Source of the DNA: Patescibacteria group bacterium
GTDB taxonomy: Bacteria > Patescibacteriota > Gracilibacteria > BD1-5 > UBA2023
Length of the DNA stretch: 64,000 nucleotides
Direction of reading: 5' to 3'
NCBI GenBank assembly: GCA_049315825.1
Contig: JBMOJK010000004.1
Coordinates: forward strand, 648 to 64,647
Positions 15,809 to 49,665 of the stretch are shown one piece after another. A program made the translations under genes and the position numbers. The notes below the pieces were generated by a model. It was given only the letters and a program-made list of their open reading frames with translations, made no database searches and was not told the origin of the DNA. The stretch's first letter is position 1. Every line of letters starts with the position of its first letter.

Positions 15809-15809
15809 A

Positions 15810-25582: not shown

Positions 25583-25945
25583 ATGAGTATTTTCAGAAAA
25601 ATCCTTGTCATCGGTATTATTGCAACTCTGAGCATGACTGCTCATGCAGAACGTAAAACCGTATACACAGCACCAACTTGGGTAGAACATTACTATGAAT
25701 TCAACACTACCCAAACAGAAAATCCTGACCAAAACTGGTGGTGTGGCCATACTGCTCTCAAGATAGTAGCACGGTATCACACTGGACAAACTCACTCACT
25801 GCAAACCATCCATAATACATTGCTTAATATATATACACGCAAAATCATTGAAAAATTCTTACATAGAGAATTTCGTAATGATATATGAATACCTAATCTA
25901 ACCCTATGAAAAAAACTCTGTTCGCTCTTTTATCGCTTGGAATAG
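25583..25945 (+). CDS. Secreted peptidase-C39-like N-terminal fragment (probably truncated)
   Basis: MSIFRKILVIGIIATLSMTAHA is a signal peptide. NWWCGHTALKIVARYHTG resembles the catalytic-Cys block of C39-like peptidases (CG.t...M.l.y.G), but no downstream His/Asp region follows. The frame reads through two TGAs to TAG 25943-25945 and overlaps the next gene by 40 nt. Confidence 0.4.
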
Positions 25946-26625: not shown

Positions 26626-26677
26626 AATACGATCTCAGTTTGAGTGTTAAAAGAGAATGAATAACCTCTTTGCTTAC

Positions 26678-33756: not shown

Positions 33757-34134
33757 ATGGCTCAGGTCACAAAAGACGGTTTCGTATTTACTATTCTCGA
33801 TGAGATCGAGCAGCAATATCCTGAGCTCGTAAAGCTTGTGCTCGCTACAGAGAGCATGGACAACAACGAAAAACAGTATTGGTTCGATATCCTCCCTTCG
33901 ATGACTGATGATCAAGTAGATCGTCTCTTCGACATCCTCGAAACTGAACGAAAGAAGCTCGAAGAGCTCGAGGTTAAGTACCAAGAAGAGATCCGAACTC
34001 TCAACGAAAAACACCTCATCGAGTGGCAGGAGTTCCAGTCACGAGACGCGCGCACGAAGGTGGCACAGGCGGAAGCATCAGACAAAAAGGATGCAGATGC
34101 TGACAATATCTTGGGCATGCTCGACAACATTTAG
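33757..34134 (+). CDS. Hypothetical acidic coiled-coil protein (125 aa)
   Basis: From ATG 33757: MAQVTKDGFVFTILDEIEQQYPELV... Followed by a charged helical tail. TAG stop and a downstream hairpin. No motif recognised. Confidence 0.55.
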   Translation: MAQVTKDGFVFTILDEIEQQYPELVKLVLATESMDNNEKQYWFDILPSMTDDQVDRLFDILETERKKLEELEVKYQEEIRTLNEKHLIEWQEFQSRDARTKVAQAEASDKKDADADNILGMLDNI

Positions 34135-34148
34135 TCTTCACCAAAAGT

Positions 34149-34177
34149 AAAGCCCGGACACTGATCTGGGCTTTTCT
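34149..34177 (+). terminator. Rho-independent terminator-like hairpin
   Basis: agcccg (34151-34156) pairs with ctgggct (34166-34172), with one G-U pair, followed by tttctctc. Confidence 0.4.
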
Positions 34178-34187
34178 CTCGCAAACT

Positions 34188-36122
34188 ATGATCGTCTCAC
34201 ACATTTATCGCCACGTCGGAACTCATCTTGCGAGTTCTGTGTCAACCAAAAAGATTCGCATTGATACTGGTGCGGAGATTTATTTTCAGATAAGCTCAGA
34301 CAGCTCTTCTGTCGTTTCACTCCTCGAGAGTTCACTCGTTGATCTTTGCGGCAGTGGAAAGCCAGCTTCAGAATCTGATGAGATCTTCTTCTCGCGTGTT
34401 CTTGAAGCTCTCAATCGCTTCCTCCTGATGAAGGAGCAGATGATCGCACGAACCAATCTTAAGGTTTTCCTTTCAGTGCTTCGTGGTGATCTTTTGTCAT
34501 TCTCAGTATGTGGTGAATACCAGGCATATCTCCAGCAAGGTGAGCGAATCACCAACATCGCAGATGGCATGGGATCAAACAATCGAGAATTCTCGTATGT
34601 TTCGAGTGGAACCGTAGGCCTCGGTGATGCGCTCTATATCGCAAATAAAGATCTCCTGAGTTTCCTCACAAAAGAAGATCTCACAGAGTTTGCTCGGACG
34701 AATGATTCAACGATTGTAGAAGGCCTATTGTCTCGTGAGTCAGCTGGCGATTCGATCGAATGTCTTGTATTTCAAAATTCTGCGGAGCGCGATTATTCAG
34801 ATGTTAGAACTTCGCGCTTTGAGAAGCCAGAGAATTTCATCAGTATGGCAACTGACGGGATAGTTGCGGGTTATAATTGGGCTGCTAAGGCGATCGCAAA
34901 CCTCGAACTCGAACGCCGTGTTCGCAAAATTATGGCGCATGAGAAAGTACAAGCTGCACTTGCAAATAAACGAGTACGAACCTGACTCTTTGGAGCGGGA
35001 CTCGTGGTGGCACTATGACTCCTCTATCTCATTACGAGTTCGCTTTTCCATTCTCGAATGGGCTCAGTCGTGCCAGAAGAATACAAGAACAAACTCGTTG
35101 AAGCGAGTCAGATCCTTAATCGATCTTCTCGCGATCTTGCGAACAAAGAAGCATTTAAGCAAAACATCAAAAAAGCCGAGGATCTTATATTTGAAGTACG
35201 AGATCAGAAACTATTCTCCAACGACGTAAAGGAACTTCTCTCACAGATTTCCCTCCTCAAGAAACAACTCAATGGAATCGAAACCTATTCTCTGAGTTCA
35301 CATCCTGAGATGTTTAACTTCGGAGCAGGAACTTTTGAACCGATTGAACTTTTTGAAAATGCTCAGAAGCTCTATTTCGTAGGAAAAAATGGTCTCTATG
35401 GCCCATATGTTCAAGGAACAACTCCAAAGAAGGAGTCTTTCCCTGACGGAGAAGAAGCCGTAAGTGCAGACATCAGTCCTGAAGGTGTTATCTACATCCT
35501 CACAAAATCAAACCGCGTTATTAAGTATAGCAAAGGATCATTTGCATATGTAAACGTTGAAGGTCAGAGCACTTGGGAGCCAAGTTCTAAGATCCGTACA
35601 TTTATCGGAAATATCTATCTGCTTTCAGCCGATGGGACACAGATCTACAAACACCGACCAAGTGTAAACGGATTTACAGGAAAATCTCCAGTGATCGACG
35701 GTGGAATTAAGGGGAATACACTCCTGGACTTTGCACTCGATGGTGGATTCTATGTGATCAAGAACGATCTTGCCTTTGAAAAGGTATTTACCACTCCTTC
35801 ATTCTCACGCAAAGGACTTCTCCTCAACAAGCTTCCTGACAATTATTCAAACTCAGACGGTGGAGGAATTCCAAAGATCACAACAAGCTCAAGCGCAAAC
35901 TACCTCTACCTCATTCTTTCGAACAAGGTATGGATCTTTGAGCCAGATTCTAAGAACATCAAGGATGTACGTGGCCTCAAGTACGTAGGACAGATCGAAA
36001 TCTCTGACCGCAAAGTCTACTCAGTGATCGTTCCAAAAGACGGAGAAATCCTCGCACTCACAGATACGGGAGTTTCATCGATCAAGTTCGAAGTTTCTGA
36101 CGGCAAGATCAATATCCACTAG
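34188..36122 (+). CDS. Membrane protein, 644 aa, unknown function (cytoplasmic N-domain, one TM helix, extracytoplasmic C-domain)
   Basis: Track ORFs 34188..34985 and 35058..36122 share a frame. The linker reads ..KRVRT-G-LFGAGLVVAL-G-LLYLITSSLFHSRMGSVV.., a TM helix containing two TGA-Gly codons. The N-domain resembles PP2C/SpoIIE only weakly (LSFSVCGEYQAYLQQGERI..GLGDALYIANKDL). The C-domain looks beta-rich. Confidence 0.6.
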
Positions 36123-36699: not shown

Positions 36700-37545
36700 A
36701 TGGTAAATTTTGCATACGTAGCTCTCGCGCTCTTCGGGGCGATATTTGGAAGCTTTGCCTCAGCACTCATCCCAAGACTCAAAGAAGGACGAAGCATGTC
36801 CAAAGAACGAAGCGCATGTCCGGCATGCGATCATACGCTCGGAGTACTTGACCTCTTCCCTATCCTTTCCTTTGCACTACTGCGAGGAAAATGTCGACAC
36901 TGTGGAGCAAAGATTCCAGCGTATCATTTTCTGCTTGAGTGTCTGATGTGTGCGGTCTTTGTACTGAGTGGAATGTACCACGTGGATATGAGCGCGATTC
37001 TTCTTGGTGATACCATCGAGGCAATTCGGCTCGCAATATTTCTCGTATCAGGATTCGTTGCAGTAACGTTCACGGTCTACGATATTTTATACATGGAAAT
37101 CCCTGACGCAGTGATTTTGCCATGTATTGCGGGATTATTTATACTTTTGAGTATTGATCACTTTTCATCGATTTCTCTCTTTAGTCACTATCTGCCTTTT
37201 GCGACTGAGTGGATGAATCTCCCGCTCGCGAACGCACTCATGGGGGCTGCGATTATATTTGGATTCTTCTTCCTGCAGATCGTAGTATCAAACGGTACAT
37301 GGATGGGCGGTGGAGACCTTCGTATAGCCATCTTTATGGGGCTTCTTGCAGGTACAAAGATTGCACTGCTTGGACTTTTTGCAGCATATATTATCGGAAG
37401 CATCATCGGAGTTGGGATCATTGCCGTGAAACGCAGTCGCAATATCCAAGTACCTTTTGGACCATATCTCGCAGCAGGTCTGTATGTTGCACTCTTTTTT
37501 CATGTCGAGATCTTGAATTGGTACTTTGGATTATTGCACATTTAA
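36700..37545 (+). CDS. pilD: Prepilin peptidase / N-methyltransferase (peptidase A24)
   Basis: Uninterrupted 281-aa ORF. The Zn-binding N-terminal box is CPACDHTL..GKCRHCGAKI. It has multiple TM helices and the catalytic-Asp regions YDILYMEIPD and GGGDLRIAIFMGLLAG. Confidence 0.9.
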   Translation: MVNFAYVALALFGAIFGSFASALIPRLKEGRSMSKERSACPACDHTLGVLDLFPILSFALLRGKCRHCGAKIPAYHFLLECLMCAVFVLSGMYHVDMSAILLGDTIEAIRLAIFLVSGFVAVTFTVYDILYMEIPDAVILPCIAGLFILLSIDHFSSISLFSHYLPFATEWMNLPLANALMGAAIIFGFFFLQIVVSNGTWMGGGDLRIAIFMGLLAGTKIALLGLFAAYIIGSIIGVGIIAVKRSRNIQVPFGPYLAAGLYVALFFHVEILNWYFGLLHI

Positions 37546-37626: not shown

Positions 37627-38166
37627 ATGACTGACCAAAAGAAGCTTGCGGCAATTCGCGACTTATTGGAGAGTGCAGGAAAATCAGTTTCAGCAGCGCG
37701 AAAGATCCTCGCAACACTTGCAGGAGAAGACGGAGCAGCAGAAGGACTCGAATACATTAATGCCAGCGGCCTCAATAATTATAAGAGCGGCACTGACAAG
37801 ATCGTCGAAGGAGTATTCACGGGAGATTCTATGCTCGGTTCAGATGGAGCAATCTATCCAGTTCCACAGAACTACGCATCTAAGTCTCACCTCGTTCAAG
37901 GAAGTAAACTCAAGGCGATTATTGCCTCTGATGGGAAGATCACGTACAAGATCATCGAAGAAATCCCATACGATACTGTGATCGGACTTCTCACTATGAA
38001 CCGAGAAAAGTATCAGGTCGTCTCAGAAAACAAGACGTATAACGTCCTCATGGCCAGTGTAACCTTCCTCAAGGCTGAGATCGGTGATACGGTTTCTGTA
38101 CGTATTCCAAAGGGGAAAGAAGCTACCTACGCAGCAGTTGACGCTATTATTCCGAAGGAGATTTAG
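37627..38166 (+). CDS. Hypothetical protein (179 aa)
   Basis: Uninterrupted ORF with a TAG stop, between pilD and the FecR-like gene. No motif recognised. Confidence 0.6.
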   Translation: MTDQKKLAAIRDLLESAGKSVSAARKILATLAGEDGAAEGLEYINASGLNNYKSGTDKIVEGVFTGDSMLGSDGAIYPVPQNYASKSHLVQGSKLKAIIASDGKITYKIIEEIPYDTVIGLLTMNREKYQVVSENKTYNVLMASVTFLKAEIGDTVSVRIPKGKEATYAAVDAIIPKEI

Positions 38167-38249
38167 CATATCCTATCAAATTCCAAACTCTCCGCTTGCC
38201 CTCGGGGAGTTTTTTGATATATTTCATCCATATCATTTCACTCAAAACT

Positions 38250-39722
38250 ATGCGACGAGGCTGAACTAATCGCACAAATGCGATGACTCTCGTACTTCCG
38301 GTATGTATTGCGATCATTATTTTGGTGATCATTATCAAGGCGATCATGGGGTCTTCTTCCTCATCGAACGGTACAAAAGATACCGCGCCTGCAGGAACTG
38401 CGTCCGTACAAGTCATCCCAAAAAAGGATGCAAAAGTGAGTATCTATATGTCTTCTGACACACAAAAAGAGCTCACCGGACCAGCCAAGCTCCTCTCAGG
38501 AGATAAAATGGTAAAGGTAGACTCGGGTGATGCAGATATCGAAATCGAAGGTTCGACTTCTAAAATCTCTATCGAGAGTCTTTCTGAGCTTCACTATGAT
38601 GGTCTCGTAGATGGAAAGCAGACTTTCACACTCAACAATGGTTACGCTTGGGTTGATTCACCAAACGGTGACGTAATTGTGAAGCTTAAGCTCTTCTCAG
38701 TGACTGCAGATAAGGGTACAGTGTATATCGTCAGCCAAAATACACGTGCAAGCAATGCATACGTCCTCAAGGGTGGTACAGCCATCGCTGCAGAAAGTGC
38801 ATCAACACTCGCACAGGCTAACCAGATGATCTCACTTCTCCTCTCTGAAGCAAAGAACACAAACATCGCAGATAAAGTGGTTGTGCTCGATGATTTCATC
38901 AAGCAATCAAGCATCTATATAAAGAAGGATGGTTCTTCTGTTCTTAGTAGTGTTTCTGACATCCCATCAGCAACTGGCAGCACAGCAAGTGGCGCAACCG
39001 GAGTTACTACGACAGGAACTGGCGAAACAAATACTACAAATGGTAAGTCGGTAAGTTTCACTTATCCAGAAGATGAAATGTCTGTCGATACTGGTTCGAT
39101 CAACATCACAGGAAAGCTTCTTAACTCTACTGTTTCAAAGATCGTTATCGGGAAGCGTGAGGCACAAGTTCTTAAGGATGATAAATCGTTCCGTCTCAAC
39201 AACTATCTCCTTCCAGATGCTTCAAACGATCTTTCATACAAGGTATTCGACGATGCGGGAGTAGTTATCGAGAAGGGTGTTATCACAGTGAATGTAAACA
39301 ATAAGAAGACTGCAATCAAGAAGCCTGATGTTGTAAACTACCCAGTCTCCAACAAGGATTTCAAGATCATTAGCCCAGCAGATAATCCATTCAAGACTAC
39401 AGAAACTTCTGTAAAACTCCGTGGATCCTTCGCTGCAAACATGGTGAAATACATCAAGGTTAACAACTACCAACTTCAGCAGTTCAAGGCATTTGGAACA
39501 TCATGGTCGTATAACGCGAGCATCGACAACGGAAATATGGAAGAAGGAATGAACGAATATCTCATCACCTACTACGGTCCAAGTGATGAAGTGCTTGGAA
39601 CTACTAAGATCTATGTCGTAAAAGATACTGCGAAACCAGCACTTCCGACTGAAACTCATACTACTCCAGTAGCCCCTGCAGCTGACCATACAGCTAGTGG
39701 AACTACCAAGCCTTCACTCTAG
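38250..39722 (+). CDS. Single-pass membrane protein with a FecR-like beta-sandwich region and an Ig-like C-terminal part
   Basis: Track ORF 38283..39722. An in-frame ATG at 38250 adds MRRG-G-TNRTNA before the TM helix LVLPVCIAIIILVIIIKAIMG. The segment LLSGDKMVKVDSGDADIEIEGSTSKISIE..TLNNGYAWVDS..FSVTADKGTVYIVS..AYVLKGGTAIAAE follows the FecR pattern (recalled from memory). The C-terminus is Pro/Thr-rich. Confidence 0.55.
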
Positions 39723-39725: not shown

Positions 39726-40385
39726 ATGTTTACTAATTCTCGCGGGAATTCGATCATAGAAGTTATTGTAGTCATGCTCGTACTCACGACAGGATTAACG
39801 GGTGCCTATGGTATTCTTTCGAGCGGTCAGACACTCGCGGTGACTACAGAAAATAGAATCAAGGCAGTTAATATTGCTCGAGAAGGGATAGAGGCAGTCG
39901 AAAATATCCGCTCTACCAACTGGATTAAATTCTCCAGCGACTACAACGCCTGCTACGATACTGCAGACTACAATCCGCTCTGCATCGGGAATACAAACCC
40001 CGCACGTCCCTATAGTTTAAAATCAGGTTCGTACATCATGACTGGTAACTCTGGCGGAGCCTGGAGTCTGAGTGGAGTAACCTCACCAGGAAGCTATACA
40101 GGTGCGACCAGGCCTCAGTATCTTGCAGTATTTCCAATATACCTAGACAGCAACGGACTCCTCTCTCAAAAAGGCCCCCCACCGAGTCTTAAGTGCACAA
40201 ATACAATCTCACGAAACTGCGTATCTATTTTTACTCGAGAAATACGTATCACTCGTCCAGCTGATTACAGTAATATACAAATAGAATCCATTGTTACCTG
40301 GAAAGATGGAACTCGTGATGAGCCGTATTCGATCACCCTCAATCATACGCTCACAAACTGGAAATACAATTACTACCAAAAATAA
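39726..40385 (+). CDS. Type IV pilin-like / pseudopilin protein
   Basis: MFTNSRG|NSIIEVIVVMLVLTTGLTGAYGIL is a class III (prepilin) signal, with Gly at -1, Glu at +5 and a hydrophobic helix. It starts 4 nt after the previous gene and lies in the same operon as pilD. Confidence 0.75.
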   Translation: MFTNSRGNSIIEVIVVMLVLTTGLTGAYGILSSGQTLAVTTENRIKAVNIAREGIEAVENIRSTNWIKFSSDYNACYDTADYNPLCIGNTNPARPYSLKSGSYIMTGNSGGAWSLSGVTSPGSYTGATRPQYLAVFPIYLDSNGLLSQKGPPPSLKCTNTISRNCVSIFTREIRITRPADYSNIQIESIVTWKDGTRDEPYSITLNHTLTNWKYNYYQK

Positions 40386-40409: not shown

Positions 40410-42722
40410 TTATTCATCAACCTGCATGTCGAGATTTGCTGTACGAACTGTTCCATCAGCGTAGGTAACAGTAAGCTTCACTTGGTACGTACCTGACTTT
40501 TCAAATACATGTGTTGGATTTGCTTCTGTGGAAGTGGTTGTCCCATCTCCAAAATCCCACTCATATTTGTCGATCTGACCAACACTTCCGAAACTATCGA
40601 AGTCGATGCTCATCCCTGCCTTTCCAGAAGAAAGACTCGAATGTACTGTGAGTTTCTTTGGAACTTCTTTGATAATAATCTTGCGACTCGTGGAAGCCTT
40701 TGATCCATCATCCTTCACAATCGTGAGCGTGGCAGTGTACTCACCCGGGATGTAATATGCGTAGGTTTTTACAGCATCTCATTCGCTTGGCTCTTTTCCT
40801 TCGCCAAAGTCGTAGATGAATTTGGATATTTTACCCGAGCGAACGCTCGATGCAGATCCATCGAAGGTAATCTTTACTGTTGCATAGAGGCTATCGAGAT
40901 CACTTTGTCCATCTGGAAGAACGAGCTTAAAGCTTGGTGAGATTTCTTCTTTCTTTCCTTCGATAATAATCTTTTCAGATGCATTGAGCTTCTCATCCGA
41001 ACCCTGCTTCTCAAAGATGTAGTTCACATTGATTTCATATCGTTTTTCAACGACGAATTCCTGTTGAACAATGAGTCACTTTTTCTCATCTCCACCGAAA
41101 TCCCACTGTACATCCGTGAGTTCATAACCTGGATTCTTAACTCGTACATCCGATGCATCGAAAGTGAGCTTCGATGGGATTGTAAAGTTCTCAATCTTAT
41201 ATGCTCGAAGGTCCGAGTTATATGTACCCTTAAGGAGAGATTCCCCTGAATCATTTGTCACTTTTATCATCGAATCTGAATTCGAATTTCTAATAAGTGC
41301 GAGCGGAGCTTTGATTGTAATTCGCTCTGTTACTGTGACAGTATTCCCTGCTGTATCACGAAGTACAGCGCTAATCTTATATGTTCCATAGCTTGGAAAA
41401 CTCGTTTCGAAGGATTCCTCATTGGAAAGTGTTGCGGTGTCATCGAGTAACCACTTAACTGATTCGATTTCTCCCCCACTTTTTGACTTCTTATCAGTAA
41501 GTGAGAAACTGATTTTTCGGACATCCGTAGGATCAACCTGATACTTGATAGATGCACTAATAGGAGAATCTGATCTAGATTTTACAAAGAAAATACGATC
41601 ACAAACATCCTTCCTCTTGGGGTCACTGTTTGCTGCAAGACAGACGAATTTATCTGCCTTCTCGATCTTGGTCGTAAACTTCAGTTCACGCGAAGCAACA
41701 GTATCAAGGTTATCACTCGTATACCAAGCAAGATTCCCCAGTGTTTTAAGATCCGTTGCATCGAAGACCACATTCTTGTCGGTAGACTTGATATCTACAC
41801 TCCCAACAATATTGATCGACTCAAAGACGATCGGCACCACTTTCCATTCTCGAGTAACGGTATCATATCCACTATATGTGCCCTTTGGAGTAAATTTACC
41901 CTTACGATCGTAGGTGTAGACCAAACTTTTGTCAGCAGCTGGATTAGATCATTTCTTATCTACAGTGCCATCGCCATCGTAGTCGATTTCATAACCGTCA
42001 ATATCGATCGTCTTAGACGCAAATTTCACATCCGATGCGAGATCGTATCGGATCGTCACTGGTCCGATGATATTATTGAAGTCTACGATTTCAGCAGAAT
42101 CTTTAAATCGATCGGAGAGATAGAGATCATTGTCATATGCGATCACTCCCCCGTTCGGATTTACGAAGTCTGAAGCCCCGATTTTCTTGAAAAGAAATGC
42201 CCAAAATCCGATGTTCGAGAAGAGGATGATCCCTATAAACGCAGAAAGGATGAAGTAAACAGTCTTCTTACGTCGGAATTCTTTCTTGGTAATAATTGCC
42301 CGAAACAAGAAGATTACCCAAGTTACCGAGAGGATAAATGTAATCGATCCGAAGATTCCATTCACTAGATTACTCAGGAGTGATGCCACCTGAGAAGGAT
42401 TGATCCCAAATCGGATAAAAAATCGCGCCTCTCCAGGATTGAAGACAATATATGCCAGGAATGACCCGAAGAATATTAGTGCGACGAGAAAGAGTGTACC
42501 AAGGATCTTCATAAACTGAGCCGGCTTCATAGGCTCGCGCTTTTTGGGAGGTTGAACTGGTGGAGTTGGCGGAGTTCATACAACCGATGCTTGTGGAGCT
42601 ACGGCAGGAGTTGATGTCGCCTCCTTAGACACCGAAGAAGCCTCTATTGAAGAGGCTCATTCGGCGAGGATAGCATCGAGAAAGCTTGGTCGGCTTGTCT
42701 CGTTATTCTCAGGTGTGGTCAT
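40410..42722 (-). CDS. Polytopic membrane protein with PKD-type repeats (770 aa)
   Basis: Four track ORFs (41949..42530, 41076..41924, 40779..41027, 40410..40718) share one frame and join at TGAs. The frame extends upstream through two more TGAs to ATG 42720-42722. The N-tail is Pro/Thr-rich and is followed by three TM helices. PKD signatures: EIDYDGDGTVD, VQWDFGGDEKK, FIYDFGEGKEP, YEWDFGDGTTT. The start lies 11 nt after the giant gene's stop. Confidence 0.8.
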
Positions 42723-42732: not shown

Positions 42733-45700
42733 TTATTTAAGCCAATCAGGGAGATCATCCATATTCGTGGTAGATGGAAGAATTGGAGTCTCTGTTGTTG
42801 GTATTGGTTCTGCCTTCTTCTTGGCTGAAGATTTTGCCTTTGGTTTTGGAGTAGGCTTTTCAGCTACAGACTCAGACTTAATCGAAGCTGGTACTGACTC
42901 AACTACAGCCTGAGGTACTGAGGGCTGAAGATCTTTCAACCAATCAGGAAGGTCGTCCACTGCAGGGGCTACAGGGGCTGCAGCTTCCGGAGCTGACTCA
43001 GGAATAGCAACAGCTTTTGATTCCTTAGACTCGTCCAATGGGAAATATTGTGTAGTTACTGGCACATCTTGAGTATATGCAGGAGCTTCTTCCTGGTGAA
43101 TCTCCTCTGTAGGCATTTCCTGTGGAGTACTTTCTACAGCAATCTGTTCTTCCTGTGCTGCAGTTCCAGAGAGCCAACTTGGAAGTTCAACTTCAGCCTT
43201 TTCCTCCACGGCAATGGAAGGTTCAGATGCTGGAGATGTAACTTCTTCAGCAGCAATCATAGAAGGTACTTCAGCATGGACCGCTTCTACCGTCTGAGTT
43301 GTCTCAGGCTCTGGAACAATAGGTGCTTCAGGAGTGGAAATTGCTGATGGAGTAGTCGCAGATAGCCAACTTGGAAGGGTAACTGGTTCTGGAGTTACAG
43401 GAGCTGCCACAACTGGTTCAGCTGGTTTCTCATCAACCACGAGTCGTTCAGTTGTACCCTTAAGCCAATCGGGAATGACAGCGGGTTGAGATTGAGTAGC
43501 ATCTGTCGAATTCCCTTCGGATGAACTAAGTGGATCAAAGGTAGGTGTTGGAGTAGATGCTACTGAAGCTGGGACGCTTGCGAGGAGATCATTGAAAGCG
43601 GGGGCCTTTGGTTCTACCTGAGTAGAGAGAGTTGAGCCAACAACCGTCGAACTTACCACAGGAGCCGGACTTCCCTTATGGAAGATTTTCTCGATGAGGA
43701 AATCTTGGAAGCCCATTGTCCCATTTCGATTTGTGATCTTGAAAATCCCGAAGAGTGCAATAAATGCAAGAACGATAAATCCAACAATGTAACCAAATGC
43801 CTTAAGGATGCCAAGTAGGATAGATATGATATCAGTTGGTCCTGTTGATGTCTGTGTTTCGGTTGCTACTGAGAGGTTCTTTGATCCTCCGTTGATGATA
43901 ATGCGGAGTTGCTCCTTGAGCGTGAGCTTATCAGCATCGCTGATGTTTTCATCAGACTTGATATACCCAAGAATCTTTTCTCCGATCGTCTTGTTGAGTT
44001 CAGTATTGGTTGGATGACCGAGGATTTCACCTACGAGTCCAGACTTACCATCCTTTCCAAAGATTTCTTCGTAGTGCGTATTCGATGTTGGGATGAGCTT
44101 TTTGAGCACACTCGTTGCGAGTGACATTTCATCTTTGGTTTCTGACTCAGTAAGGAGGAATCCATCGAGGATCGTGAGGAATTCATTCTTCACGTCGTCA
44201 GAGACTGAGAGATCAGCCACTGTTCGTTCCATGGCAACTACAGCCTTAGTTTTTTCTGTAGTATCCTGCCATCCATCCTGAAGCTGGCTAAGCTGTTGCA
44301 TAAGCTTTACGCGGTCTGCTTCTGGAGCTTTTGTTCGTACGAGATCTTTGAGCTTTCCGAGAGATGCTTTGTCAGCATCAGAAATCGCCTTGTTAAGCGC
44401 TCCTGAGCCTTCGAGTGTATCCTTGATAGCATTTTCATCCGCGTAATCAAGAACGATCTTGATCTTCTGTGATCCGATCTTCTTCCCTGATCCATCATAG
44501 ATTGCAACCATAATGTTGCGCTCCTTGGTAGAACCGAGGTTTCGGATCATAAATGGCGCTCCGTTGGTGTATGAGTCAGTTCCAGCATTATCGGCATCGT
44601 CTGAGACCTCACCATTGAGATCACTATCCGCAGTGATATCAGAGTCGATTGTATACTTCGTTACATCACCCTTTGATTCTCCAAGATATACGAATACCTT
44701 TTCGTCAGAGCGAGAAACATGGATTTCGTTATCTTCTGCCTTTGGATATGTAAATACTACGAGGTTTTCAGAAGAATTCTTGAGACGTGCTGCATTGATA
44801 ACATCCTTGCGGAGTGGAACTGTAATTGTCTTCGTATCTGTTCCATCCGAAACTTCGAGTGTCACTTGTGAGGTCGTATCTTCTGTATCGAGGTTTACAA
44901 CATATGAGTCACGATTCTCTGATGTATTTTTTCCTACTGTCCACTTTACCTTGCTGTAGATTCCGCTTGTTGTATTCATGAATACATAGCGGTTTCCGAT
45001 ACCGTAGTATTCGAGGTTTGGCCGGAGCTCGTTGCGGATCGTGATCTGAGAATACTTTGTATTTGAAATCCCCTTGTACGTTGCCTTTACCTTCATATTG
45101 AAAGATCCTGGCTTGTCGTAGGTGTGCTTTACACTTGGAGATGTCGTCGTTTCATCGTAGAAACCATCACCATCGTAGTCCCACTTAAACTCTGTTTTCT
45201 CAGTAATATCCTGCTGGAGAATATTCTTTACATTTGCCTGGAAAGCGAGTGATTCACCTACGTTGGCACTTGATTTAGATGCCTTGAGTGTGATGAGTGG
45301 AGTATTGATATTGTCAGATGCGAGCGTAATAGAATATCGCTCATCGTGTCCTTCTTCTGAGTTTACCTTTGCACCATTTGAGTCTTCGAGCGTCACGGCG
45401 AAATAGTATTTCCCGTTGATGCGTGGAAGAACAAACGTAGTCTTTGGTGTACGTGTAATACGGAAATCCTGTGGTTCTGGATCGCTATCAGTGTAGTAGT
45501 ACCAGAGATATGAAACAATCACTCCATCTGGATCAATTGCATTGTTTGCTGCAACATTTACGATAACTGGATCAGCATCTGGTTTGTCAGATGTTACAGT
45601 GAGTGAGGCGAATGTTGGGAGAACATTTTCAACCTTTACATTCATATATGCGGTACTTGTCTTCCCTGTTTTCTGGCTACGAACCGTAAGGCTCACTGGA

Positions 45701-48192
45701 AAACATCCAAGTTCATCAAACTTATATGAGAAATCTCGCTGTGTAGAGTTCTTTCCTCCGTACTTCCATGTATAGGTAAGTCCGTTGGTTGTGCCATCTG
45801 TATTGATACTCTCTTCACCAGTAATTCGAATTGCCTTCGTGCGGTCTACGATATAGGCATCCCCTTCAGGACATGCATTTGCAACCGGTTCTACTGTATC
45901 TTGATCGTTTTTAACCGTGATCGCTGCAAGCGGTGAATCTGCATCGGAAACATACACCTTTCGAGTGATCGTGTTTGAATTTCCAGCATTTGGATTTCCA
46001 CGAACTGTGAGTCGTACATCGAATGTTCCAGACTTCTTGTATGTATGAAATGCTCGGCTTTCGCTTGTGTTTTCGCTTGTCCCATCACCGTAATCCCATT
46101 CGAATACAGTGGCCTCTTTTGACTCTGCAACGATAGCAACGGGTGATCCAAGCTGTCCAACCTTTGGAGTGACGATCAGCTTCACAGAGAGGAGAGATTC
46201 TACATTGAAATCCTTCTTTGTATTCGTTACCTTCCCCTGCTGGTTTCCAAGATCGAGAACGATCGTATGATTTCCCTTTGTTGTGAATGTATAGTAACCG
46301 AGTGCACCATTTCGTGAGCTATTGTTGAGTTCAACTCGTTCTCCATCAATCGTCCAATTAAATGTAAGCTTTGAGGCATCGAGGCTATCTGGATCATAGC
46401 TACGAGTTGCATCGAGCAGTACAGTGTTTGGAGTTTCTGCAGATGCAGACTTTACTTCAAACTGAGCGATTGGATCTTTTGAATCAATACGAACTGAGAT
46501 ATTGTCCGTATCCTGCTGACCATTCGAAGAAAGAGTCTTCAGTCGCACTACATAGTTTCCCATGCGTGGGAACTTGTAGTTGATAGACGAAGCCTTTGTA
46601 GAATAGAGTGACTTTCCTGAATCTGCTTCGAGAATTGACCATTCGTATGTAAGAAGCACAGATGCAGCATTGGAGCTTGCCTGAAACTTGAAGTCATCGC
46701 TTGCAAAACCGGAAGTCTTATCGGCTCGGATTGTAGCGATTGGATCTTGAACCTGGAGGTTGATCGTCTTGACAACTTCAGCCTTCTCGTTCGTTGTGAT
46801 CTTGAGTCGGATTGTGTAATTCCCAGCTCGTGCATACACCTGACGCTCTACACGTGGAGATCCATTGTATACAGAAGTATTTCCATTTCCGAAATCCCAT
46901 TCTGTCTTGAGAATAGTAGCTCCTGCTGCCGCAGTAGAAGATGAAGCATCGATGATCAATCCTGAATTTCCCTGGTTTGGAGTAATCTTGTAGCTATCTG
47001 TCTGCGAAACATTTGATCCATTAAGATAGAGAAGAATGTTTGCAAGCTTTGGTTCTACACGGATTTCTTGAGTTCCATTGAATGGGAGAACGTCCATTCG
47101 CCCCTTTGAATTTCGACTTGCAGAAAGAATCTGGAGATTCACAGTGTATACCCCTTCTTCCGTGAATTTATAACCGATTGATGGACCATTTCCGATCACC
47201 TTTCGAGTATTTCCTACTCCCTTGAGCCACCAAACATAGTTCGAATCTGGGATGCGAACTCCCGATGGATCACGCGCTTCGTTTGCGCGGAGCGTTACGG
47301 TAAGTGCAGCATTTCCATGATCAGGAGTTGCGCTGATCTTAGTAGAAATCTGTCCGATCTTTACCTTCGTAAGAAGATCCTTGAGTGACTGAGCAAGACG
47401 ATCAGTATAGAGATTAGAATCAGGATATTTCTGAACGAGAGCGATCGAAGTAAGAACTCCGTTTGCAAGTCCAATATTGAGATCCTTGTCCGTATCAGGA
47501 AAAGTATCCATACTCTTCGTGACTGCAGTCTTGAGATCCTGGAGAGATGCGAATTTTACACGTCCGTCTACTTCGTAGTCGCGACCGATAGACTGAGAAA
47601 TAGACTCGATCTGCGCACGGTAGAAATCAAATGCCTTACCCTCATCAGGATCAGCTGCATATGCAGAATCAATTGAGAATACACTAGAAATCGCATTGAT
47701 AATCCCCTCCTTCTTATTCTTGCCTGTTCCAATAATGAAACGTGTAATAGAATACGCAAGGGTAATGAGGATAAGACCAGCAATCGCATAAACGATGATT
47801 TTCTTGGCCTTCTTGACCTTTTCTTCGTCGCCCGCTGATGTGAGCACAGAGAAACCAGCCCAGAGAATCAGCGCTACTGTAATGAGTGCCAAGAATGTGA
47901 GCAAGTATGCTACAACATCCTGAACATATTCAGAGAAGCGCTTATCTGTTTTGATATCGTTGACACCATTCTTTACAAGGTCTGTTCCCTTGTCGAGTGA
48001 ACAGTACTTCGAAGAACTTGGGTCATTCGAGTTACAGATATTTATTTTTGTGTCGTCTTCACAGTTGAGTGCCCAAATGCTGCATGCTGCGTGTGCAGTA
48101 GCAGGAGCGGAAGTGAGTGATCCTGTTTCAATAAGTGAAACAAGTGGAAGAGAGAGGAATCCGAGGAGGATGATTCGCACCAAACGAAGCAT
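42733..48192 (-). CDS. Giant (1,819 aa) surface protein: signal peptide, T4SS-pilin-like (TrbC/VirB2-like) two-helix membrane module, PKD/Ig-like repeat array, third TM helix, Pro/Glu-rich tail with five [LI]P[DS]WL[KS] motifs
   Basis: A single uninterrupted ORF containing no TGA. I place the start at ATG 48190-48192 (MLRLVRIILLGFLSLPLVSLIETGSLTSAPATAHA). The pilin-like block, at about 47728-47970, reads VVAYLLTFLALITVALILWAGFSVLTSAGDEEKVKKAKKIIVYAIAGLILITLAYSITRFI. PKD signatures include EWDFGNGNT, FEWDYGDGTS and FKWDYDGDGFY, plus degenerate copies. A TM helix lies at about 43741-43830 (ISILLGILKAFGYIVGFIVLAFIALFGIF). TAA stop. Confidence 0.85.
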   Translation of the reverse strand: MLRLVRIILLGFLSLPLVSLIETGSLTSAPATAHAACSIWALNCEDDTKINICNSNDPSSSKYCSLDKGTDLVKNGVNDIKTDKRFSEYVQDVVAYLLTFLALITVALILWAGFSVLTSAGDEEKVKKAKKIIVYAIAGLILITLAYSITRFIIGTGKNKKEGIINAISSVFSIDSAYAADPDEGKAFDFYRAQIESISQSIGRDYEVDGRVKFASLQDLKTAVTKSMDTFPDTDKDLNIGLANGVLTSIALVQKYPDSNLYTDRLAQSLKDLLTKVKIGQISTKISATPDHGNAALTVTLRANEARDPSGVRIPDSNYVWWLKGVGNTRKVIGNGPSIGYKFTEEGVYTVNLQILSASRNSKGRMDVLPFNGTQEIRVEPKLANILLYLNGSNVSQTDSYKITPNQGNSGLIIDASSSTAAAGATILKTEWDFGNGNTSVYNGSPRVERQVYARAGNYTIRLKITTNEKAEVVKTINLQVQDPIATIRADKTSGFASDDFKFQASSNAASVLLTYEWSILEADSGKSLYSTKASSINYKFPRMGNYVVRLKTLSSNGQQDTDNISVRIDSKDPIAQFEVKSASAETPNTVLLDATRSYDPDSLDASKLTFNWTIDGERVELNNSSRNGALGYYTFTTKGNHTIVLDLGNQQGKVTNTKKDFNVESLLSVKLIVTPKVGQLGSPVAIVAESKEATVFEWDYGDGTSENTSESRAFHTYKKSGTFDVRLTVRGNPNAGNSNTITRKVYVSDADSPLAAITVKNDQDTVEPVANACPEGDAYIVDRTKAIRITGEESINTDGTTNGLTYTWKYGGKNSTQRDFSYKFDELGCFPVSLTVRSQKTGKTSTAYMNVKVENVLPTFASLTVTSDKPDADPVIVNVAANNAIDPDGVIVSYLWYYYTDSDPEPQDFRITRTPKTTFVLPRINGKYYFAVTLEDSNGAKVNSEEGHDERYSITLASDNINTPLITLKASKSSANVGESLAFQANVKNILQQDITEKTEFKWDYDGDGFYDETTTSPSVKHTYDKPGSFNMKVKATYKGISNTKYSQITIRNELRPNLEYYGIGNRYVFMNTTSGIYSKVKWTVGKNTSENRDSYVVNLDTEDTTSQVTLEVSDGTDTKTITVPLRKDVINAARLKNSSENLVVFTYPKAEDNEIHVSRSDEKVFVYLGESKGDVTKYTIDSDITADSDLNGEVSDDADNAGTDSYTNGAPFMIRNLGSTKERNIMVAIYDGSGKKIGSQKIKIVLDYADENAIKDTLEGSGALNKAISDADKASLGKLKDLVRTKAPEADRVKLMQQLSQLQDGWQDTTEKTKAVVAMERTVADLSVSDDVKNEFLTILDGFLLTESETKDEMSLATSVLKKLIPTSNTHYEEIFGKDGKSGLVGEILGHPTNTELNKTIGEKILGYIKSDENISDADKLTLKEQLRIIINGGSKNLSVATETQTSTGPTDIISILLGILKAFGYIVGFIVLAFIALFGIFKITNRNGTMGFQDFLIEKIFHKGSPAPVVSSTVVGSTLSTQVEPKAPAFNDLLASVPASVASTPTPTFDPLSSSEGNSTDATQSQPAVIPDWLKGTTERLVVDEKPAEPVVAAPVTPEPVTLPSWLSATTPSAISTPEAPIVPEPETTQTVEAVHAEVPSMIAAEEVTSPASEPSIAVEEKAEVELPSWLSGTAAQEEQIAVESTPQEMPTEEIHQEEAPAYTQDVPVTTQYFPLDESKESKAVAIPESAPEAAAPVAPAVDDLPDWLKDLQPSVPQAVVESVPASIKSESVAEKPTPKPKAKSSAKKKAEPIPTTETPILPSTTNMDDLPDWLK

Positions 48193-48270
48193 TGTAAGTT
48201 CCTTTAGAGGGTAGAGAAGCGATTTACGCCTTACCGTCACGTTATCATATGACCGTTTTGAATGCAAAAA

Positions 48271-49665
48271 TTAGCTACCACTACATGCTTCATCGTATCC
48301 AGACTGACCTATGAGGTGCTTTTTTTGGCAGTCCATTTCTTTAACTGTATCCGATAAGATTGCCTTTGCATTGGGATTACTGCGGTCGAGCGCATTTCCA
48401 AAATATGCTTCAAATTCCGAAGTAAGACCGCGATCAAAATTCACAAGACTCACATCTCCTGCAGGGATAAAGCTATCATATCGCACCCAAGGAAAGTTTT
48501 TATTCATGGTTTTATCCTTGCGTTCCTCTACGAGATCATTGCGTGCTGGGAGGTAGTGTGGAAACGCTTCAAGATACGCCTGAGCGGATTCCTTGCTTGA
48601 AAGATGTACGAGGAAATCTGTCGCAGCCGCAGGATTTGGAGCGTATTTAGAGAGAGCAAAGTATGTATAGCGAGCAAGATTGAGCTTCTTACCGACACCT
48701 GTTTGTGGAATCTCGGACGATCGTAGATCTTTTTTCTCAAGAACCGCATCAGAACTCGCACGCTTGAGTGAGTACTCAATCTCACGAAGCAGTGAAGGAT
48801 ATCCGAAGATTACCCCGATCTTTCCGCGTACAAACATATCCGTAGAGGAAATCCCCTGACGATCCATCGCATCTTTGAGCTTTATGAGGTGGTTTGCATT
48901 GTCAGAGCCTGCATCGTTTCCAGAATATGAAAGATATTCACTGAGTGCTTTTTCAGCCTGAGTGTCTGCCATGTTCGAGAATGCATTGATTCCACCCTGG
49001 ATCAAGAAGAGTGATGCAATATTTGCTGCCTGCGTGACATAACGATTTCCCAGTCCAAGTCCTACTGGAACAGTATCTTCGGTGATATTTTCTGAGATGT
49101 ATTTCTTAAGTTCGTCCCAAGTGAGTGGTACAGCATTGCTCACAACTGAGCGATTGTAAAAAGCGCCCATAGTCTCATACGCAAGTGGCACTCACTTGAT
49201 AGATCGGATTTGGATCTCCTTCCCGTCCGCACTCTTTCCTGACTCAGTCACGATGAGATCATCGAAGAGTTTGTTGTAGTTGCGGGCCATATCATCGATA
49301 TTCACCGCTGAATCTGGAAGATTGGCAGTCTTGGTTTCAAGAATCCCAGCGCCCGACGATGGAACAACGAAAATATCTGGAGAGTTCCCATCAGCAATCA
49401 CATTGAGGAGTGATTTCTCATAATCTCCGTAGGTCGCAAACTTGGTAACGACTACGTTCGTATCTTTGTAGCTGTCTTTTTTGAATGCTTTGATGATATC
49501 ATCAAAGCCTGTGCTGTCATCTCCTACAACCCACATGGATATCTCTTTTGGTCCTTTTGGTCCTTTTTGCTGGCTTTTAGAATTCGCCATGAGTGTGAAT
49601 CCAATACCGATCGCGAGCGCAAGCACTGCTATCCCGATGAAGAAGAAGAGTTTTTTCTGTGACAT
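48271..49665 (-). CDS. Extracellular solute-binding protein (ABC transporter SBP family 1-like), orphan
   Basis: Track ORFs 49192..49665 and 48271..49191 are contiguous in frame across TGA 49192-49194 (..IRSIK-G-VPLAYETMGAFYNR..). It has an N-terminal membrane anchor or signal (FFFIGIAVLALAIGIGFTLMA). No permease or ATPase genes are adjacent. Confidence 0.65.

What the first reader, a model, noticed from the sequence alone, without database searches (positions are those of the whole stretch)
42733..48192. Giant 1,819-aa protein fusing a T4SS-pilin-like membrane hairpin to a long PKD array and a third TM helix
After a cleavable signal peptide and a Cys-containing segment, residues about 100-180 of the track ORF (about 75-155 counted from the ATG I call at 48190-48192; DNA about 47728-47970) read VVAYLLTFLALITVALILWAGFSVLTSAGDEEKVKKAKKIIVYAIAGLILITLAYSITRFI.

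This is the two-helix pattern (..G.....tSaGd.ek..kAKk.i..ai.Gl.i...) that I recall for TrbC/VirB2-like 'T4SS pilin' proteins. Those are normally about 100-aa stand-alone subunits and are common in CPR and Gram-positive conjugation loci.

Here the module is the N-terminal anchor of a protein that continues with about 1,200 aa of PKD/Ig-like repeats (EWDFGNGNT, FEWDYGDGTS, FKWDYDGDGFY and degenerate copies). A helical region follows, then another TM helix (about 43741-43830) and a roughly 330-aa tail.

The predicted topology places the PKD array outside and the tail in the cytoplasm. I am not aware of a described pilin-PKD fusion of this kind. In an episymbiotic or predatory CPR lineage it is a candidate host-contact structure.
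Basis: partly seen in the sequence, partly recalled or inferred. Interest (0 to 1): 0.8.

Follow-up and report, generated by a model that had tools for sequence, protein, structure and literature searches.

The report
Pilin-hairpin fused to giant PKD surface protein
A real, widely conserved Gracilibacteria gene joins a small VirB2/T4SS-pilin-like membrane hairpin to a giant PKD-repeat surface protein; in some relatives the two are separate neighbouring genes, and the gene sits among type-IV-pilus-like genes, not T4SS genes.

Summary
ORF 42733-48192(-) encodes 1,819 aa with this layout:
- signal peptide and a 4-Cys segment;
- a two-helix hairpin that passes Pfam T4SS_pilin (31.4 bits, cut-off 26.6);
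- a 4-helix bundle and about 10 Ig/PKD domains (about 960 aa, not 1,200);
- an all-alpha domain, a third TM helix and a 330-aa disordered tail.

It is not a chimera: 35 species-level Gracilibacteria genomes carry the same fusion.

New findings:
1. The core protein family has two clades. One has only a plain signal peptide. The other (this one) has the hairpin.
2. In two genomes of the hairpin clade, the hairpin is a separate 149-aa gene just upstream of a giant gene that has its own signal peptide.
3. All 39 fused sequences keep an (A/T/V)-x-A signal-peptidase-like site in the disordered linker (A177-Y-A179|A180). I infer the precursor is probably cut into a free pilin-like protein and a type-I giant protein.
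4. The conserved neighbourhood is SBP, giant, a second PKD membrane protein, a PilV-like type IV pilin, two unknown genes and PilD. No T4SS genes were found.
5. The tail carries 5 copies of [DE]-[ILV]-P-D-W-L-K, which resembles the Gracilibacteria FtsZ C-terminal peptide.

Function (host or surface contact) is inferred, not shown.

The parts
42733..48192 (-). Whole CDS of the giant protein (1,819 aa plus TAA stop); clade-A 'fused' form
48088..48192 (-). N-terminal signal peptide, aa 1-35 (hydrophobic core 1-26, AHA|A)
   Evidence: Hydropathy; aligned signal peptides of homologues
47929..48087 (-). Extracellular 4-Cys segment, aa 36-88 (C37, C44, C53, C64). It is shared with stand-alone pilin-like relatives.
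47725..47928 (-). VirB2/T4SS_pilin-like two-helix hairpin, aa 89-156, with cytoplasmic loop TSAGDEEKVKKAKK
   Evidence: Pfam PF18895 at 31.4 bits versus 26.6. NF045849 at 39.9 versus 40. phmmer found 20,302 representative clusters at E<=1e-3. AlphaFold helices 86-118 and 123-154.
47632..47724 (-). Disordered linker, aa 157-187. It looks like the remnant of the giant protein's own signal peptide.
   Evidence: pLDDT below 50; alignment of 33 fused forms and comparison with split genes
47656..47664 (-). Conserved A177-Y178-A179 | A180, an (A/T/V)-x-A signal-peptidase-I-type site (predicted cleavage, not shown)
   Evidence: All 39 fused sequences keep it. It aligns with the signal-peptide cleavage regions of the split (L044/L068) and clade-B proteins.
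47365..47631 (-). Four-helix bundle, aa 188-276, the first domain of the conserved 'core'
   Evidence: AlphaFold pLDDT about 90. Foldseek finds only generic bundles. tblastn matches in clade B begin here.
44449..47349 (-). Array of about 10 Ig-like/PKD domains, aa 282-1248. Seven are PKD-profile domains at 286-362, 401-471, 489-559, 580-655, 672-737, 783-843 and 969-1041. There is also a Sde0182_C-like stretch at 878-920 and two beta-sandwiches at about 1056-1126 and 1147-1248.
43894..44379 (-). All-alpha juxtamembrane ectodomain, aa 1272-1433
   Evidence: AlphaFold; conserved in alignment A1
43726..43833 (-). Third TM helix, aa 1454-1489, followed by the conserved GFQDF motif
42736..43725 (-). 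Cytoplasmic P/A/E/S/T-rich tail, aa 1490-1819
43459..43476 (-). Tail motif copy 1 (IPDWLK)
43360..43377 (-). Tail motif copy 2 (LPSWLS)
43168..43185 (-). Tail motif copy 3 (LPSWLS)
42934..42951 (-). Tail motif copy 4 (DDLPDWLK)
42736..42753 (-). Tail motif copy 5 (DDLPDWLK), which is the C-terminus
48271..49665 (-). Upstream partner gene: TM-anchored SBP_bac_1/8 solute-binding-protein homologue (464 aa under code 25). It is conserved directly upstream in clade-A loci.
40410..42722 (-). Downstream partner gene 'p770': cytoplasmic N-terminus, 3 TM helices and a PKD array. It starts 10 nt after the giant's stop and is conserved in clade-A loci.
39726..40385 (+). Type IV pilin-like protein (N_methyl, G|NSIIE, weak PilV match), linked to the cassette in 22 clade-A loci
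38196..39722 (+). Conserved linked gene w508 (N-terminal TM helix, no family match)
37627..38166 (+). Conserved linked gene w179 (no family match)
36700..37545 (+). Prepilin peptidase (A24_N_bact plus Peptidase_A24, PilD-like), linked wherever the fetched flank reaches far enough

Best explanation
What it is. This is the fused form of a two-gene surface module specific to Gracilibacteria (code 25). One gene is a small VirB2/T4SS_pilin-family protein: signal peptide, Cys-rich ecto-segment, two-TM hairpin. The other is a giant type-I membrane protein: 4-helix bundle, about 10 Ig/PKD domains, alpha domain, TM helix and a disordered cytoplasmic tail with repeated [DE]-[ILV]-P-D-W-L-K motifs.

Biogenesis (inferred).
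1. The N-terminal signal peptide starts Sec export.
2. TM1 stops transfer, and the KVKKAKK loop stays inside the cell.
3. TM2 restarts export of the roughly 1,300-aa ectodomain.
4. TM3 anchors the protein and leaves the tail in the cytoplasm.

Probable cleavage (inferred). The linker after TM2 looks like the decayed signal peptide of the giant gene. It retains an (A/T/V)-x-A site (A177-Y-A179|A180). I think the precursor is probably cut there. That would yield a free pilin-like hairpin protein and a giant protein with a free distal 4-helix-bundle tip, the same products that the split genes give in two relatives.

How the parts work together (inferred). The giant protein, the hairpin, the SBP-like protein and the second PKD membrane protein (p770) act together at the cell surface. 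They are genomically coupled to a PilD peptidase and a PilV-like type IV pilin, not to a VirB4-type T4SS. The most likely role is a long, PKD-based contact or adhesion fibre for host or prey surfaces. Its cytoplasmic tail would recruit an unknown partner through its short linear motifs.

Shown: architecture, homology, fusion/split states, conserved site, conserved neighbourhood.
Inferred: cleavage, complex formation, adhesion role.
For: Architecture.

Hairpin homology. PF18895 is above its cut-off. Stand-alone 133-152-aa relatives are 42-56% identical. TrbC PF04956 is above its cut-off in family member P0193.

Family survey. 80 Gracilibacteria-type genome loci were fetched. Code-25 ORF analysis shows 35 fused, 1 frameshifted and 2 split loci (L044, L068). 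In the split loci a 149-aa pilin ORF ends in TAA, 24-26 nt follow, and then the giant ORF starts with its own hydrophobic signal peptide. About 36 clade-B genes have only a plain signal peptide. An NJ tree separates clades A and B and nests the split forms inside A.

Linker. It varies from 17 to 45 aa and is predicted disordered. All 39 fused sequences end it with (A/T/V)-x-A about 8 aa before the bundle.

Neighbourhood.
- SBP and p770 flank nearly every clade-A gene and no clade-B gene.
- SBP and p770 are 31-36% identical between the window and distant loci.
- PilD-w179-w508-w219 is linked in 22 clade-A loci, in two different arrangements: convergent downstream, or co-directional upstream.
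- The closest stand-alone hairpins head a PilC plus N_methyl operon.

Tail motif. 317 instances in 68 complete proteins; P and W are invariant; 52 of 68 proteins end with the motif. It is absent from every other reading frame of the window and of L001-L005, apart from one looser-pattern match in L001.

Literature. Giant PKD membrane proteins are already suspected host-attachment factors in the related predator Vampirococcus (PMC8080830).
Against: - No experimental data bear on cleavage, localisation or function.
- The proposed site lies about 23 aa beyond TM2, and the preceding segment (GIINAISSVFSI) is only weakly hydrophobic. Signal peptidase I normally cuts closer to the membrane.
- The conserved AxA could instead have a structural role at the start of the bundle.
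- The N-terminal AlphaFold model is only moderately confident (mean pLDDT 66).
- Neighbourhood conservation shows linkage, not a physical complex.
- I could not examine whole genomes, so a T4SS elsewhere that uses this hairpin is not excluded. A survey reports VirB4 and VirB2-like genes in Gracilibacteria (bioRxiv 10.1101/2025.01.22.634366).
Confidence: 0.5

Rival explanations
1. The protein is not cleaved. The hairpin is a permanent N-terminal membrane anchor, and the PKD array is an arch held at both ends. Through the hairpin the giant protein could co-assemble with free hairpin subunits, as a 'modular VirB2-type pilin' that stays in the membrane.
For: - The fusion is conserved in 35 genomes.
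- The hairpin is as well conserved as stand-alone homologues.
- Polypeptides with 3-8 tandem hairpins exist, so covalently linked hairpins are tolerated and hairpins may pack side by side.
- The AxA site is far from TM2 for signal peptidase I.
Against: - Clade-B proteins share the whole core and have a free N-terminal bundle.
- The split genes in L044 and L068 show that the covalent link is dispensable.
- A 17-45-aa linker would hold the distal bundle within about 10 nm of the membrane, which forces a fold-back of a roughly 10-domain rod.
- The AxA is invariant within an otherwise variable, disordered linker.
Confidence: 0.3
2. It is a true T4SS pilus component. The hairpin polymerises into a VirB4-dependent conjugative-type pilus and the PKD array is its tip or base adhesin.
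For: - The Pfam T4SS_pilin match, with TrbC matches in relatives.
- VirB2-like genes lie near virB4 in many CPR genomes, and a pilin array is essential in Southlakia (bioRxiv 10.1101/2025.01.22.634366).
Against: - No T4SS gene was found in the window ORFs that were scanned (those flanking the gene and most ORFs without an obvious identity), nor among the called genes of the related loci whose precomputed Pfam annotations were returned (L001-L004 and L086-L089).
- A third TM helix plus a 330-aa cytoplasmic tail would prevent extraction into a filament.
- The conserved neighbours are T4P-type genes (PilD, a PilV-like pilin; PilC for the stand-alone relatives).
- The survey reports VirB6 absent, and VirB3/TrsD not clustered with VirB4, in Gracilibacteria.
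Confidence: 0.05
3. It is an artefact: an assembly chimera, or a read-through of two genes caused by using the wrong genetic code.
For: The window uses TGA as a sense codon, so table-11 ORF lists are unreliable for the neighbouring genes.
Against: - The ORF has no in-frame TGA and is bounded by TAA, so it is the same under codes 11 and 25.
- The same contiguous fusion occurs in 35 independent assemblies down to about 33% identity.
Confidence: 0.01

Closest known systems
CPR VirB2-like pilins, Pfam T4SS_pilin PF18895 (for example the essential pilin array of Ca. Southlakia epibionticum ML1; survey in bioRxiv 10.1101/2025.01.22.634366)
   Same: Signal peptide, two TM helices and a short basic cytoplasmic loop. 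The profile match is above the cut-off, and identity to stand-alone code-25 relatives is 42-56%.
   Different: Here the module is covalently joined to a roughly 1,640-aa protein. It is not next to virB4 or other T4SS genes, and it lies in a T4P-flavoured neighbourhood.
Propilin processing of TrbC (RP4) and VirB2 (Ti). The C-terminal trimming, with the LepB-like peptidase TraF acting on TrbC, is established knowledge cited from memory.
   Same: In both cases a VirB2-family hairpin is matured by proteolysis at both ends. The proposed AxA cut after TM2 would be a C-terminal maturation step.
   Different: In RP4 a short peptide is removed and the pilin is cyclised. Here the 'removed' part would be a 1,640-aa functional protein. 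The cleavage is not demonstrated.
Modular type IV pilins, for example Streptococcus sanguinis PilB (PMC8179133)
   Same: The concept is the same: a pilin module grafted to a bulky adhesive domain.
   Different: It is a different pilin superfamily (class III signal, single N-terminal helix). Those proteins have no extra TM helix or cytoplasmic tail and are incorporated into the filament.
Giant PKD-, fibronectin- and integrin-domain membrane proteins of Vampirococcus lugosii (Absconditabacteria), PMC8080830
   Same: Related code-25 CPR lineage. These are very large membrane proteins with PKD domains, proposed to mediate host recognition and attachment.
   Different: That paper describes no pilin hairpin, no cassette and no tail motif. 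Orthology was not tested here.
Ig-domain fibres of other contact-dependent predators, for example Aureispira GhpA 'grappling hook' (PDB 9flw, 9flx and others)
   Same: Tandem Ig-like domains. These are Foldseek hits at E about 1e-4 to the C-terminal beta-sandwiches.
   Different: The similarity is generic tandem-Ig. There is no sequence relationship, and GhpA has a different anchoring and secretion route.

Membership tests
Pfam T4SS_pilin (PF18895) | Profile match at or above the gathering score | tested here: met
   31.4 bits versus 26.6, E 2e-7, aa 101-153 covering profile positions 20-71 of 71
Pfam T4SS_pilin (PF18895) | Signal peptide followed by two TM helices joined by a short, positively charged cytoplasmic loop | tested here: met
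   Hydropathy segments 1-26, 89-121 and 128-156; loop TSAGDEEKVKKAKK; helices 86-118 and 123-154 in AlphaFold
Pfam T4SS_pilin (PF18895) | Small stand-alone subunit of about 100-150 aa | tested here: not met
   The protein is 1,819 aa. Orthologous cassettes in L044 and L068 do encode the hairpin as a separate 149-aa ORF.
Pfam T4SS_pilin (PF18895) | Encoded with T4SS genes (VirB4, VirB6/PrgH, VirB3/PrgI, T4CP) | tested here: not met
   No such Pfam hits among the window ORFs scanned or among the called genes of L001-L004 and L086-L089. Whole genomes were not examined.
Pfam T4SS_pilin (PF18895) | Polymerises into, or is part of, a T4SS pilus or channel | not testable with these tools
   Needs cryo-EM/ET or biochemistry
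TrbC/VirB2 (PF04956) | Profile match at or above the gathering score (27.9 bits) | tested here: not met
   Not listed for the window protein at E<=1. Family members score 23.5-28.9 bits; only P0193 passes.
NCBIfam NF045849 (Mbov_0395 pilin-like conjugal transfer protein) | Score at or above the curated cut-off (40 bits) | tested here: not met
   39.9 bits, E 2.6e-10, aa 85-156: just below the cut-off
PKD-domain surface proteins (PF00801 / PF18911) | Repeated PKD profile matches above the cut-off | tested here: met
   PKD_4 132.8 bits and PKD 126.5 bits, 6 stretches each; 7 domains with a family HMM
Type IV pilins (class III signal, N_methyl) | G|xxxxE prepilin peptidase site and a single N-terminal hydrophobic helix | tested here: not met
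   No N_methyl match in the giant protein. The neighbouring gene 39726-40385 has it: G|NSIIE, N_methyl E 9e-4, weak PilV match.
CPR Pam pilus system (bioRxiv 10.64898/2026.03.03.709456) | Match to Pam models; Ig-like pilins assembled by donor-strand exchange; pam operon | tested here: not met
   Only a 19.5-bit local hit to PamR against a cut-off of 300. The paper reports that system predominantly in Saccharimonadia and Microgenomatia.
Gracilibacteria giant PKD protein family defined here (clade A) | Full-length homology of the core (bundle, PKD array, alpha domain, TM, tail motifs), plus the hairpin and the SBP and p770 neighbours | tested here: met
   Alignment A1 with 26-91% identity over the full length

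The most novel reading that the evidence does not exclude
The cytoplasmic tail is a multivalent mimic of the FtsZ C-terminal peptide. Each protein carries 1-8 copies (median 4) of [ED][ED]x-[ILV]-P-D-W-L-K, usually including the extreme C-terminus. The one Gracilibacteria FtsZ I recovered ends ...GDDLDVPTFLRKKM, and its gene lies next to an FtsA gene (L071). If the motif binds FtsA or another FtsZ-tail receptor, the giant PKD fibre would be a transmembrane link between host or surface contact and the division or cytoskeletal machinery of an obligate epibiont or predator. Separately, the 'T4SS pilin' hairpins of this lineage would be partners of surface-fibre and T4P-like systems rather than T4SS pili.
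Probability: 0.12. Interest if true: 0.85.

Novelty: new variant of a known kind. Interest (0 to 1): 0.55.

Why it matters
VirB2-like 'T4SS pilin' hairpins are among the most abundant CPR-enriched membrane proteins. A pilin array is reported as essential for epibiotic growth in Saccharibacteria. What these proteins actually do is unknown.

A conserved gene fusion, and its split counterpart, with a giant PKD surface protein acts as a Rosetta-stone link. It names a concrete partner and a concrete neighbourhood: SBP, a second PKD membrane protein, PilD and a minor type IV pilin. This makes the question testable in Gracilibacteria and Absconditabacteria cultures.

It also warns that the Pfam label 'T4SS pilin' may not imply a T4SS in this lineage.

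The finding adds two specific, checkable predictions:
- an internal signal-peptidase site that would turn one ORF into two proteins;
- a new repeated cytoplasmic motif that resembles the FtsZ tail.

Tried and rejected
1. Misassembly or wrong-code read-through. Rejected: the ORF is the same under codes 11 and 25, and the fusion recurs in 35 genomes.
2. Sequence search of the hairpin profile against the PDB. Nothing beyond chance, best E 0.65.
3. Foldseek of the N-terminal model. Only generic 4-helix bundles (PsbQ, talin, FAT), E above 0.05, and no pilin hit. A bare helical hairpin is not discriminating.
4. Foldseek of the C-terminal model. Generic tandem-Ig hits only, and no informative match for the alpha domain.
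5. Homology search with the tail alone. It found only a fragment of the nearest orthologue.
6. Full-text search for the tail motif strings. Nothing relevant.
7. Pam pilus of CPR. Considered because of a weak PamR hit and rejected: 19.5 bits versus 300, and a different lineage and mechanism.
8. Stand-alone status of P0061 and P0062. On inspection they are N-terminal fragments of fused genes cut at a TGA by code-11 gene calling, so I did not count them as stand-alone pilins.
9. The figure '268 relatives' from the genome scan. It probably includes unrelated PKD proteins, because one search pattern is a generic PKD motif. I rely only on the best 80 loci.
10. A second hairpin gene in the window. 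None found.
Full report
**1. The observation**

The ORF at 42733..48267(-) is real. TAA codons bound it on both sides and it contains no in-frame TGA. Orthologues start at MLRLVRIILLG, so the ATG at 48190-48192 is the start and the protein is 1,819 aa.

The window as a whole uses TGA as a sense codon. Table-11 ORFs of the neighbouring SBP and MurG genes are split. TGA falls on invariant glycines: the MurF P-loop GTV[G]KS, ABC-F LSE[G]Q, GlmS [G]IGHTRWAT and UvrD AEE[G]VFP. This is genetic code 25, as in Gracilibacteria and Absconditabacteria.

The best database hits and all 80 related genome loci come from MAGs or genomes labelled Gracilibacteria, 'Peribacteria', Patescibacteria or simply 'uncultured bacterium'.

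**2. Anatomy (numbering from the ATG)**

| Residues | Feature | Evidence |
|---|---|---|
| 1-35 | Signal peptide, AHA\|A at 35/36 | |
| 36-88 | Extracellular segment with four Cys | |
| 89-156 | Two TM helices joined by the loop TSAGDEEKVKKAKK | |
| 157-187 | Linker predicted disordered | |
| 188-276 | Confident four-helix bundle (pLDDT about 90) | |
| 286-1041 | Seven PKD-profile domains | |
| about 1056-1248 | Two further beta-sandwiches | |
| about 1272-1433 | All-alpha domain | |
| 1454-1489 | TM helix | |
| 1490-1819 | P/A/E/S/T-rich tail | |

The basic residues in the hairpin loop and after TM3 (KITNRN) fit a topology with the PKD array outside and the tail inside. That topology is an inference.

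**3. Is the hairpin pilin-like?**

Yes, at the level of profile homology.
- Pfam T4SS_pilin PF18895 scores 31.4 bits against a gathering score of 26.6.
- NCBIfam NF045849 (Mbov_0395 pilin-like conjugal transfer protein) scores 39.9 against 40.
- TrbC/VirB2 PF04956 is not detected in the window protein. It scores 23.5-28.9 bits in family members, and one (P0193) passes the cut-off.
- An exhaustive phmmer search with aa 60-165 finds 20,302 representative clusters at E<=1e-3.

The nearest non-fused relatives are stand-alone proteins of 133-152 aa at 42-56% identity. They have the same signal peptide, Cys segment, hairpin and loop. Several show W where the family has G, which means TGA was read as Trp by the gene caller, so they also come from code-25 genomes.

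Sequence search of the PDB and Foldseek gave nothing specific for the hairpin.

**4. The fusion is real and old, and it is one of three states**

A scan of GTDB species genomes returned 80 loci with long matches. I re-called ORFs under code 25 and searched them with the hairpin, the core, the SBP and the downstream gene. The loci fall into these groups:

| State | Number of loci |
|---|---|
| Same fusion as the window | 35 |
| Fusion broken by a frameshift (L027) | 1 |
| Hairpin and giant as separate genes (L044, L068) | 2 |
| Plain N-terminal signal peptide only (clade B) | about 36 |
| N-terminally truncated | the remainder |

- In the fused genes, identity to the window protein goes down to about 33%.
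- In the split loci, the hairpin is a separate 149-aa ORF ending in TAA. After 24-26 nt, a giant ORF follows with its own hydrophobic signal peptide, MKTLRNLSSQSFLIYILIFLSIGTGIVYW...NVSAAY.
- In clade B, a plain N-terminal signal peptide is followed, after about 20-30 aa, by the homologue of the four-helix bundle.

A neighbour-joining tree of the core region (78 sequences, 1,212 columns) separates a hairpin-associated clade A from a signal-peptide-only clade B. The split forms nest within clade A. The covalent link between hairpin and giant is therefore evolutionarily interchangeable with two adjacent genes.

**5. A conserved signal-peptidase-type site in the linker**

In the fused forms the linker between TM2 and the bundle varies from 17 to 45 aa and has little sequence conservation. 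Even so, all 39 non-identical fused sequences end it the same way: a weakly hydrophobic stretch followed by (A/T/V)-x-A. This lies about 8 residues before the TFxEY start of the bundle. In the window it is A177-Y178-A179|A180.

This position aligns with the signal-peptide cleavage regions of the split and clade-B proteins. It lies in a segment with pLDDT below 50.

I read the linker as the decayed signal peptide of the giant gene. Its hydrophobic core became dispensable once TM2 of the hairpin took over export, while its cleavage site stayed under selection. The simplest model is a precursor cut into two products:
- a free pilin-like protein, aa 36-179;
- a type-I giant protein with a free distal bundle, as in clade B.

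This is inference. The site is further from the membrane than is typical for signal peptidase I, and there are no protein-level data.

**6. Neighbourhood: not a T4SS**

No VirB4, VirB6, VirB3 or coupling-protein families appear among the window ORFs I scanned with Pfam (those flanking the gene and most ORFs without an obvious identity). None appear among the called genes of the related loci whose precomputed Pfam annotations were returned (L001-L004 and L086-L089).

Clade-A genes are instead embedded in a conserved set.
- A TM-anchored SBP_bac_1/8 protein lies directly upstream (window 48271-49665).
- A protein with 3 TM helices and a PKD array lies directly downstream (p770, 40410-42722).
- These two are present in nearly all clade-A loci with enough flank and in no clade-B locus.
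- Between the window and distant loci they are 31-36% identical over their full lengths.
- Four further genes are linked in 22 clade-A loci: PilD-like prepilin peptidase (36700-37545), w179, w508 and a type IV pilin-like protein (39726-40385; N_methyl, G|NSIIE, weak PilV match).

These four genes occur in two arrangements. In the window's subclade they lie convergent, right after p770. In the other subclade they lie co-directional upstream, as PilD-w179-w508-w219-(one gene)-SBP-(pilin)giant-p770. Linkage that survives such a rearrangement argues for a functional connection.

Independently, the closest stand-alone hairpin genes (P0063, P0067) head an operon with PilC (T2SSF) and three N_methyl proteins. 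One of those three is homologous to the window's w219.

A recent survey found VirB2-like PF18895 genes near virB4 in many CPR genomes. It also reported VirB6 absent, and VirB3/TrsD unclustered, in Gracilibacteria (bioRxiv 10.1101/2025.01.22.634366). In this lineage the 'T4SS pilin' label may not imply a T4SS.

**7. The tail motif**

The otherwise unconserved tail carries five copies of [LI]P[DS]WL[KS], and the last copy is the C-terminus, DDLPDWLK.
- Across 68 complete family proteins there are 317 instances.
- The consensus is [ED][ED][DEK]-[IVL]-P-D-W-L-K-G-S, with P and W invariant.
- Copy number is 1-8, median 4.
- In 52 of the 68 proteins a copy lies within 6 residues of the C-terminus.

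The motif occurs in both clades. It occurs in no other reading frame of the window or of L001-L005, apart from one looser-pattern match (IPAWMR) on the opposite strand of L001. No paper mentions it.

It resembles the FtsZ C-terminal peptide. The one Gracilibacteria FtsZ in the fetched loci ends GDDLDVPTFLRKKM and lies next to an FtsA gene (L071). In about 1.2 Mb of related DNA, FtsZ was the only non-family ORF of more than 150 aa with [DE][LIV]P.[FW][LMI][KR] near its C-terminus.

This is a resemblance, not a test. I carry it as the novel case, at roughly 12%.

**8. Comparison with known systems, and verdict**

The hairpin is a member of PF18895 by score and topology. It fails two contextual features of that family: it is not a small stand-alone subunit, and it has no T4SS neighbourhood.
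- The giant part is a PKD-array surface protein. Proteins of this kind are already suspected to mediate host attachment in the related predator Vampirococcus (PMC8080830).
- 'Modular' type IV pilins (PMC8179133) are a conceptual analogue only.
- The CPR Pam pilus is unrelated.

I found no description of the following: this fusion, its split and clade-B counterparts, the cassette, the internal AxA site, or the tail motif.

I rate it a new variant of known kinds (CPR VirB2-like hairpins and giant PKD surface proteins), of moderate interest. The architecture and comparative genomics are solid. Cleavage, complex formation and the contact function remain hypotheses with clear experimental tests.

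Noticed in passing
whole window; e.g. 32331-33635, 5246-6700, 9450-11276: The window uses TGA as glycine (code 25). Table-11 ORFs are fragmented, and TGA sits on invariant Gly of the MurF P-loop, the ABC-F LSGGQ signature and Glm[10 protein letters not shown].
   Followed up: yes
42733-48267 compared with the rest of the window; L001, L008, L010, L011, L018: The giant gene has 0 TGA in 1,844 codons, while other window genes use it at about 0.46% of codons (about 8.5 expected). In close relatives the giant gene is also several-fold poorer in TGA than its SBP and p770 neighbours. This may reflect high expression or selection on accuracy.
   Followed up: partly
P0075, P0076, P0078, P0200 and many others: Many proteins in public data carry 3-8 tandem T4SS_pilin hairpins in one continuous polypeptide (for example P0075, 501 aa, 6 copies). 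P0159 has two hairpins plus a PKD array. The hairpin is therefore a reusable membrane module, and poly-hairpin proteins may be pseudo-oligomers or polyproteins.
   Followed up: partly
L086 556-6050; L088 6819-12131: The closest stand-alone hairpin genes head a conserved operon: hairpin, 174 aa, 180 aa, PilC (T2SSF), three N_methyl pseudopilins, 275 aa. This is a type IV pilus/T2SS-like context rather than a T4SS context.
   Followed up: partly
L071 34-2490 and 5811-10019: In one clade-B genome the giant gene lies about 3-4.5 kb from ftsA-ftsZ. FtsZ ends DDLDVPTFLRKKM, and FtsA ends in an amphipathic helix. No other fetched locus contains ftsZ, so the proximity may be chance.
   Followed up: no
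7177-18956: A large envelope-glycan gene cluster. From reading the translations it includes a GT4-like glycosyltransferase, GlmS, mannose-1-P guanylyltransferase, GDP-mannose dehydratase, a methyltransferase and GT2 enzymes; only the GT9 heptosyltransferase-like gene was confirmed by Pfam.
   Followed up: no
29082-30614 (-): A secreted M23 peptidase fused to an S-layer-homology (SLH) domain. In L004 an M23 peptidase gene sits between the T4P-like genes and the SBP of the cassette.
   Followed up: no
24000-26700: A low-GC stretch (0.37 versus about 0.44) encoding two predicted secreted or lipoproteins with no family match (24051-25058 on the minus strand, 25906-26625 on the plus strand).
   Followed up: no
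34023-36122 (+): A 699-aa ORF with no Pfam match, just upstream of a RecO-like gene and PilD. Homologues were seen only in L001, L004 and L032. Its N-terminal roughly 60 aa look like an over-extension of the ORF.
   Followed up: no
L002 15116-15838: In one clade-B locus a signal peptidase I (Peptidase_S26) gene lies immediately downstream of the giant gene.
   Followed up: no
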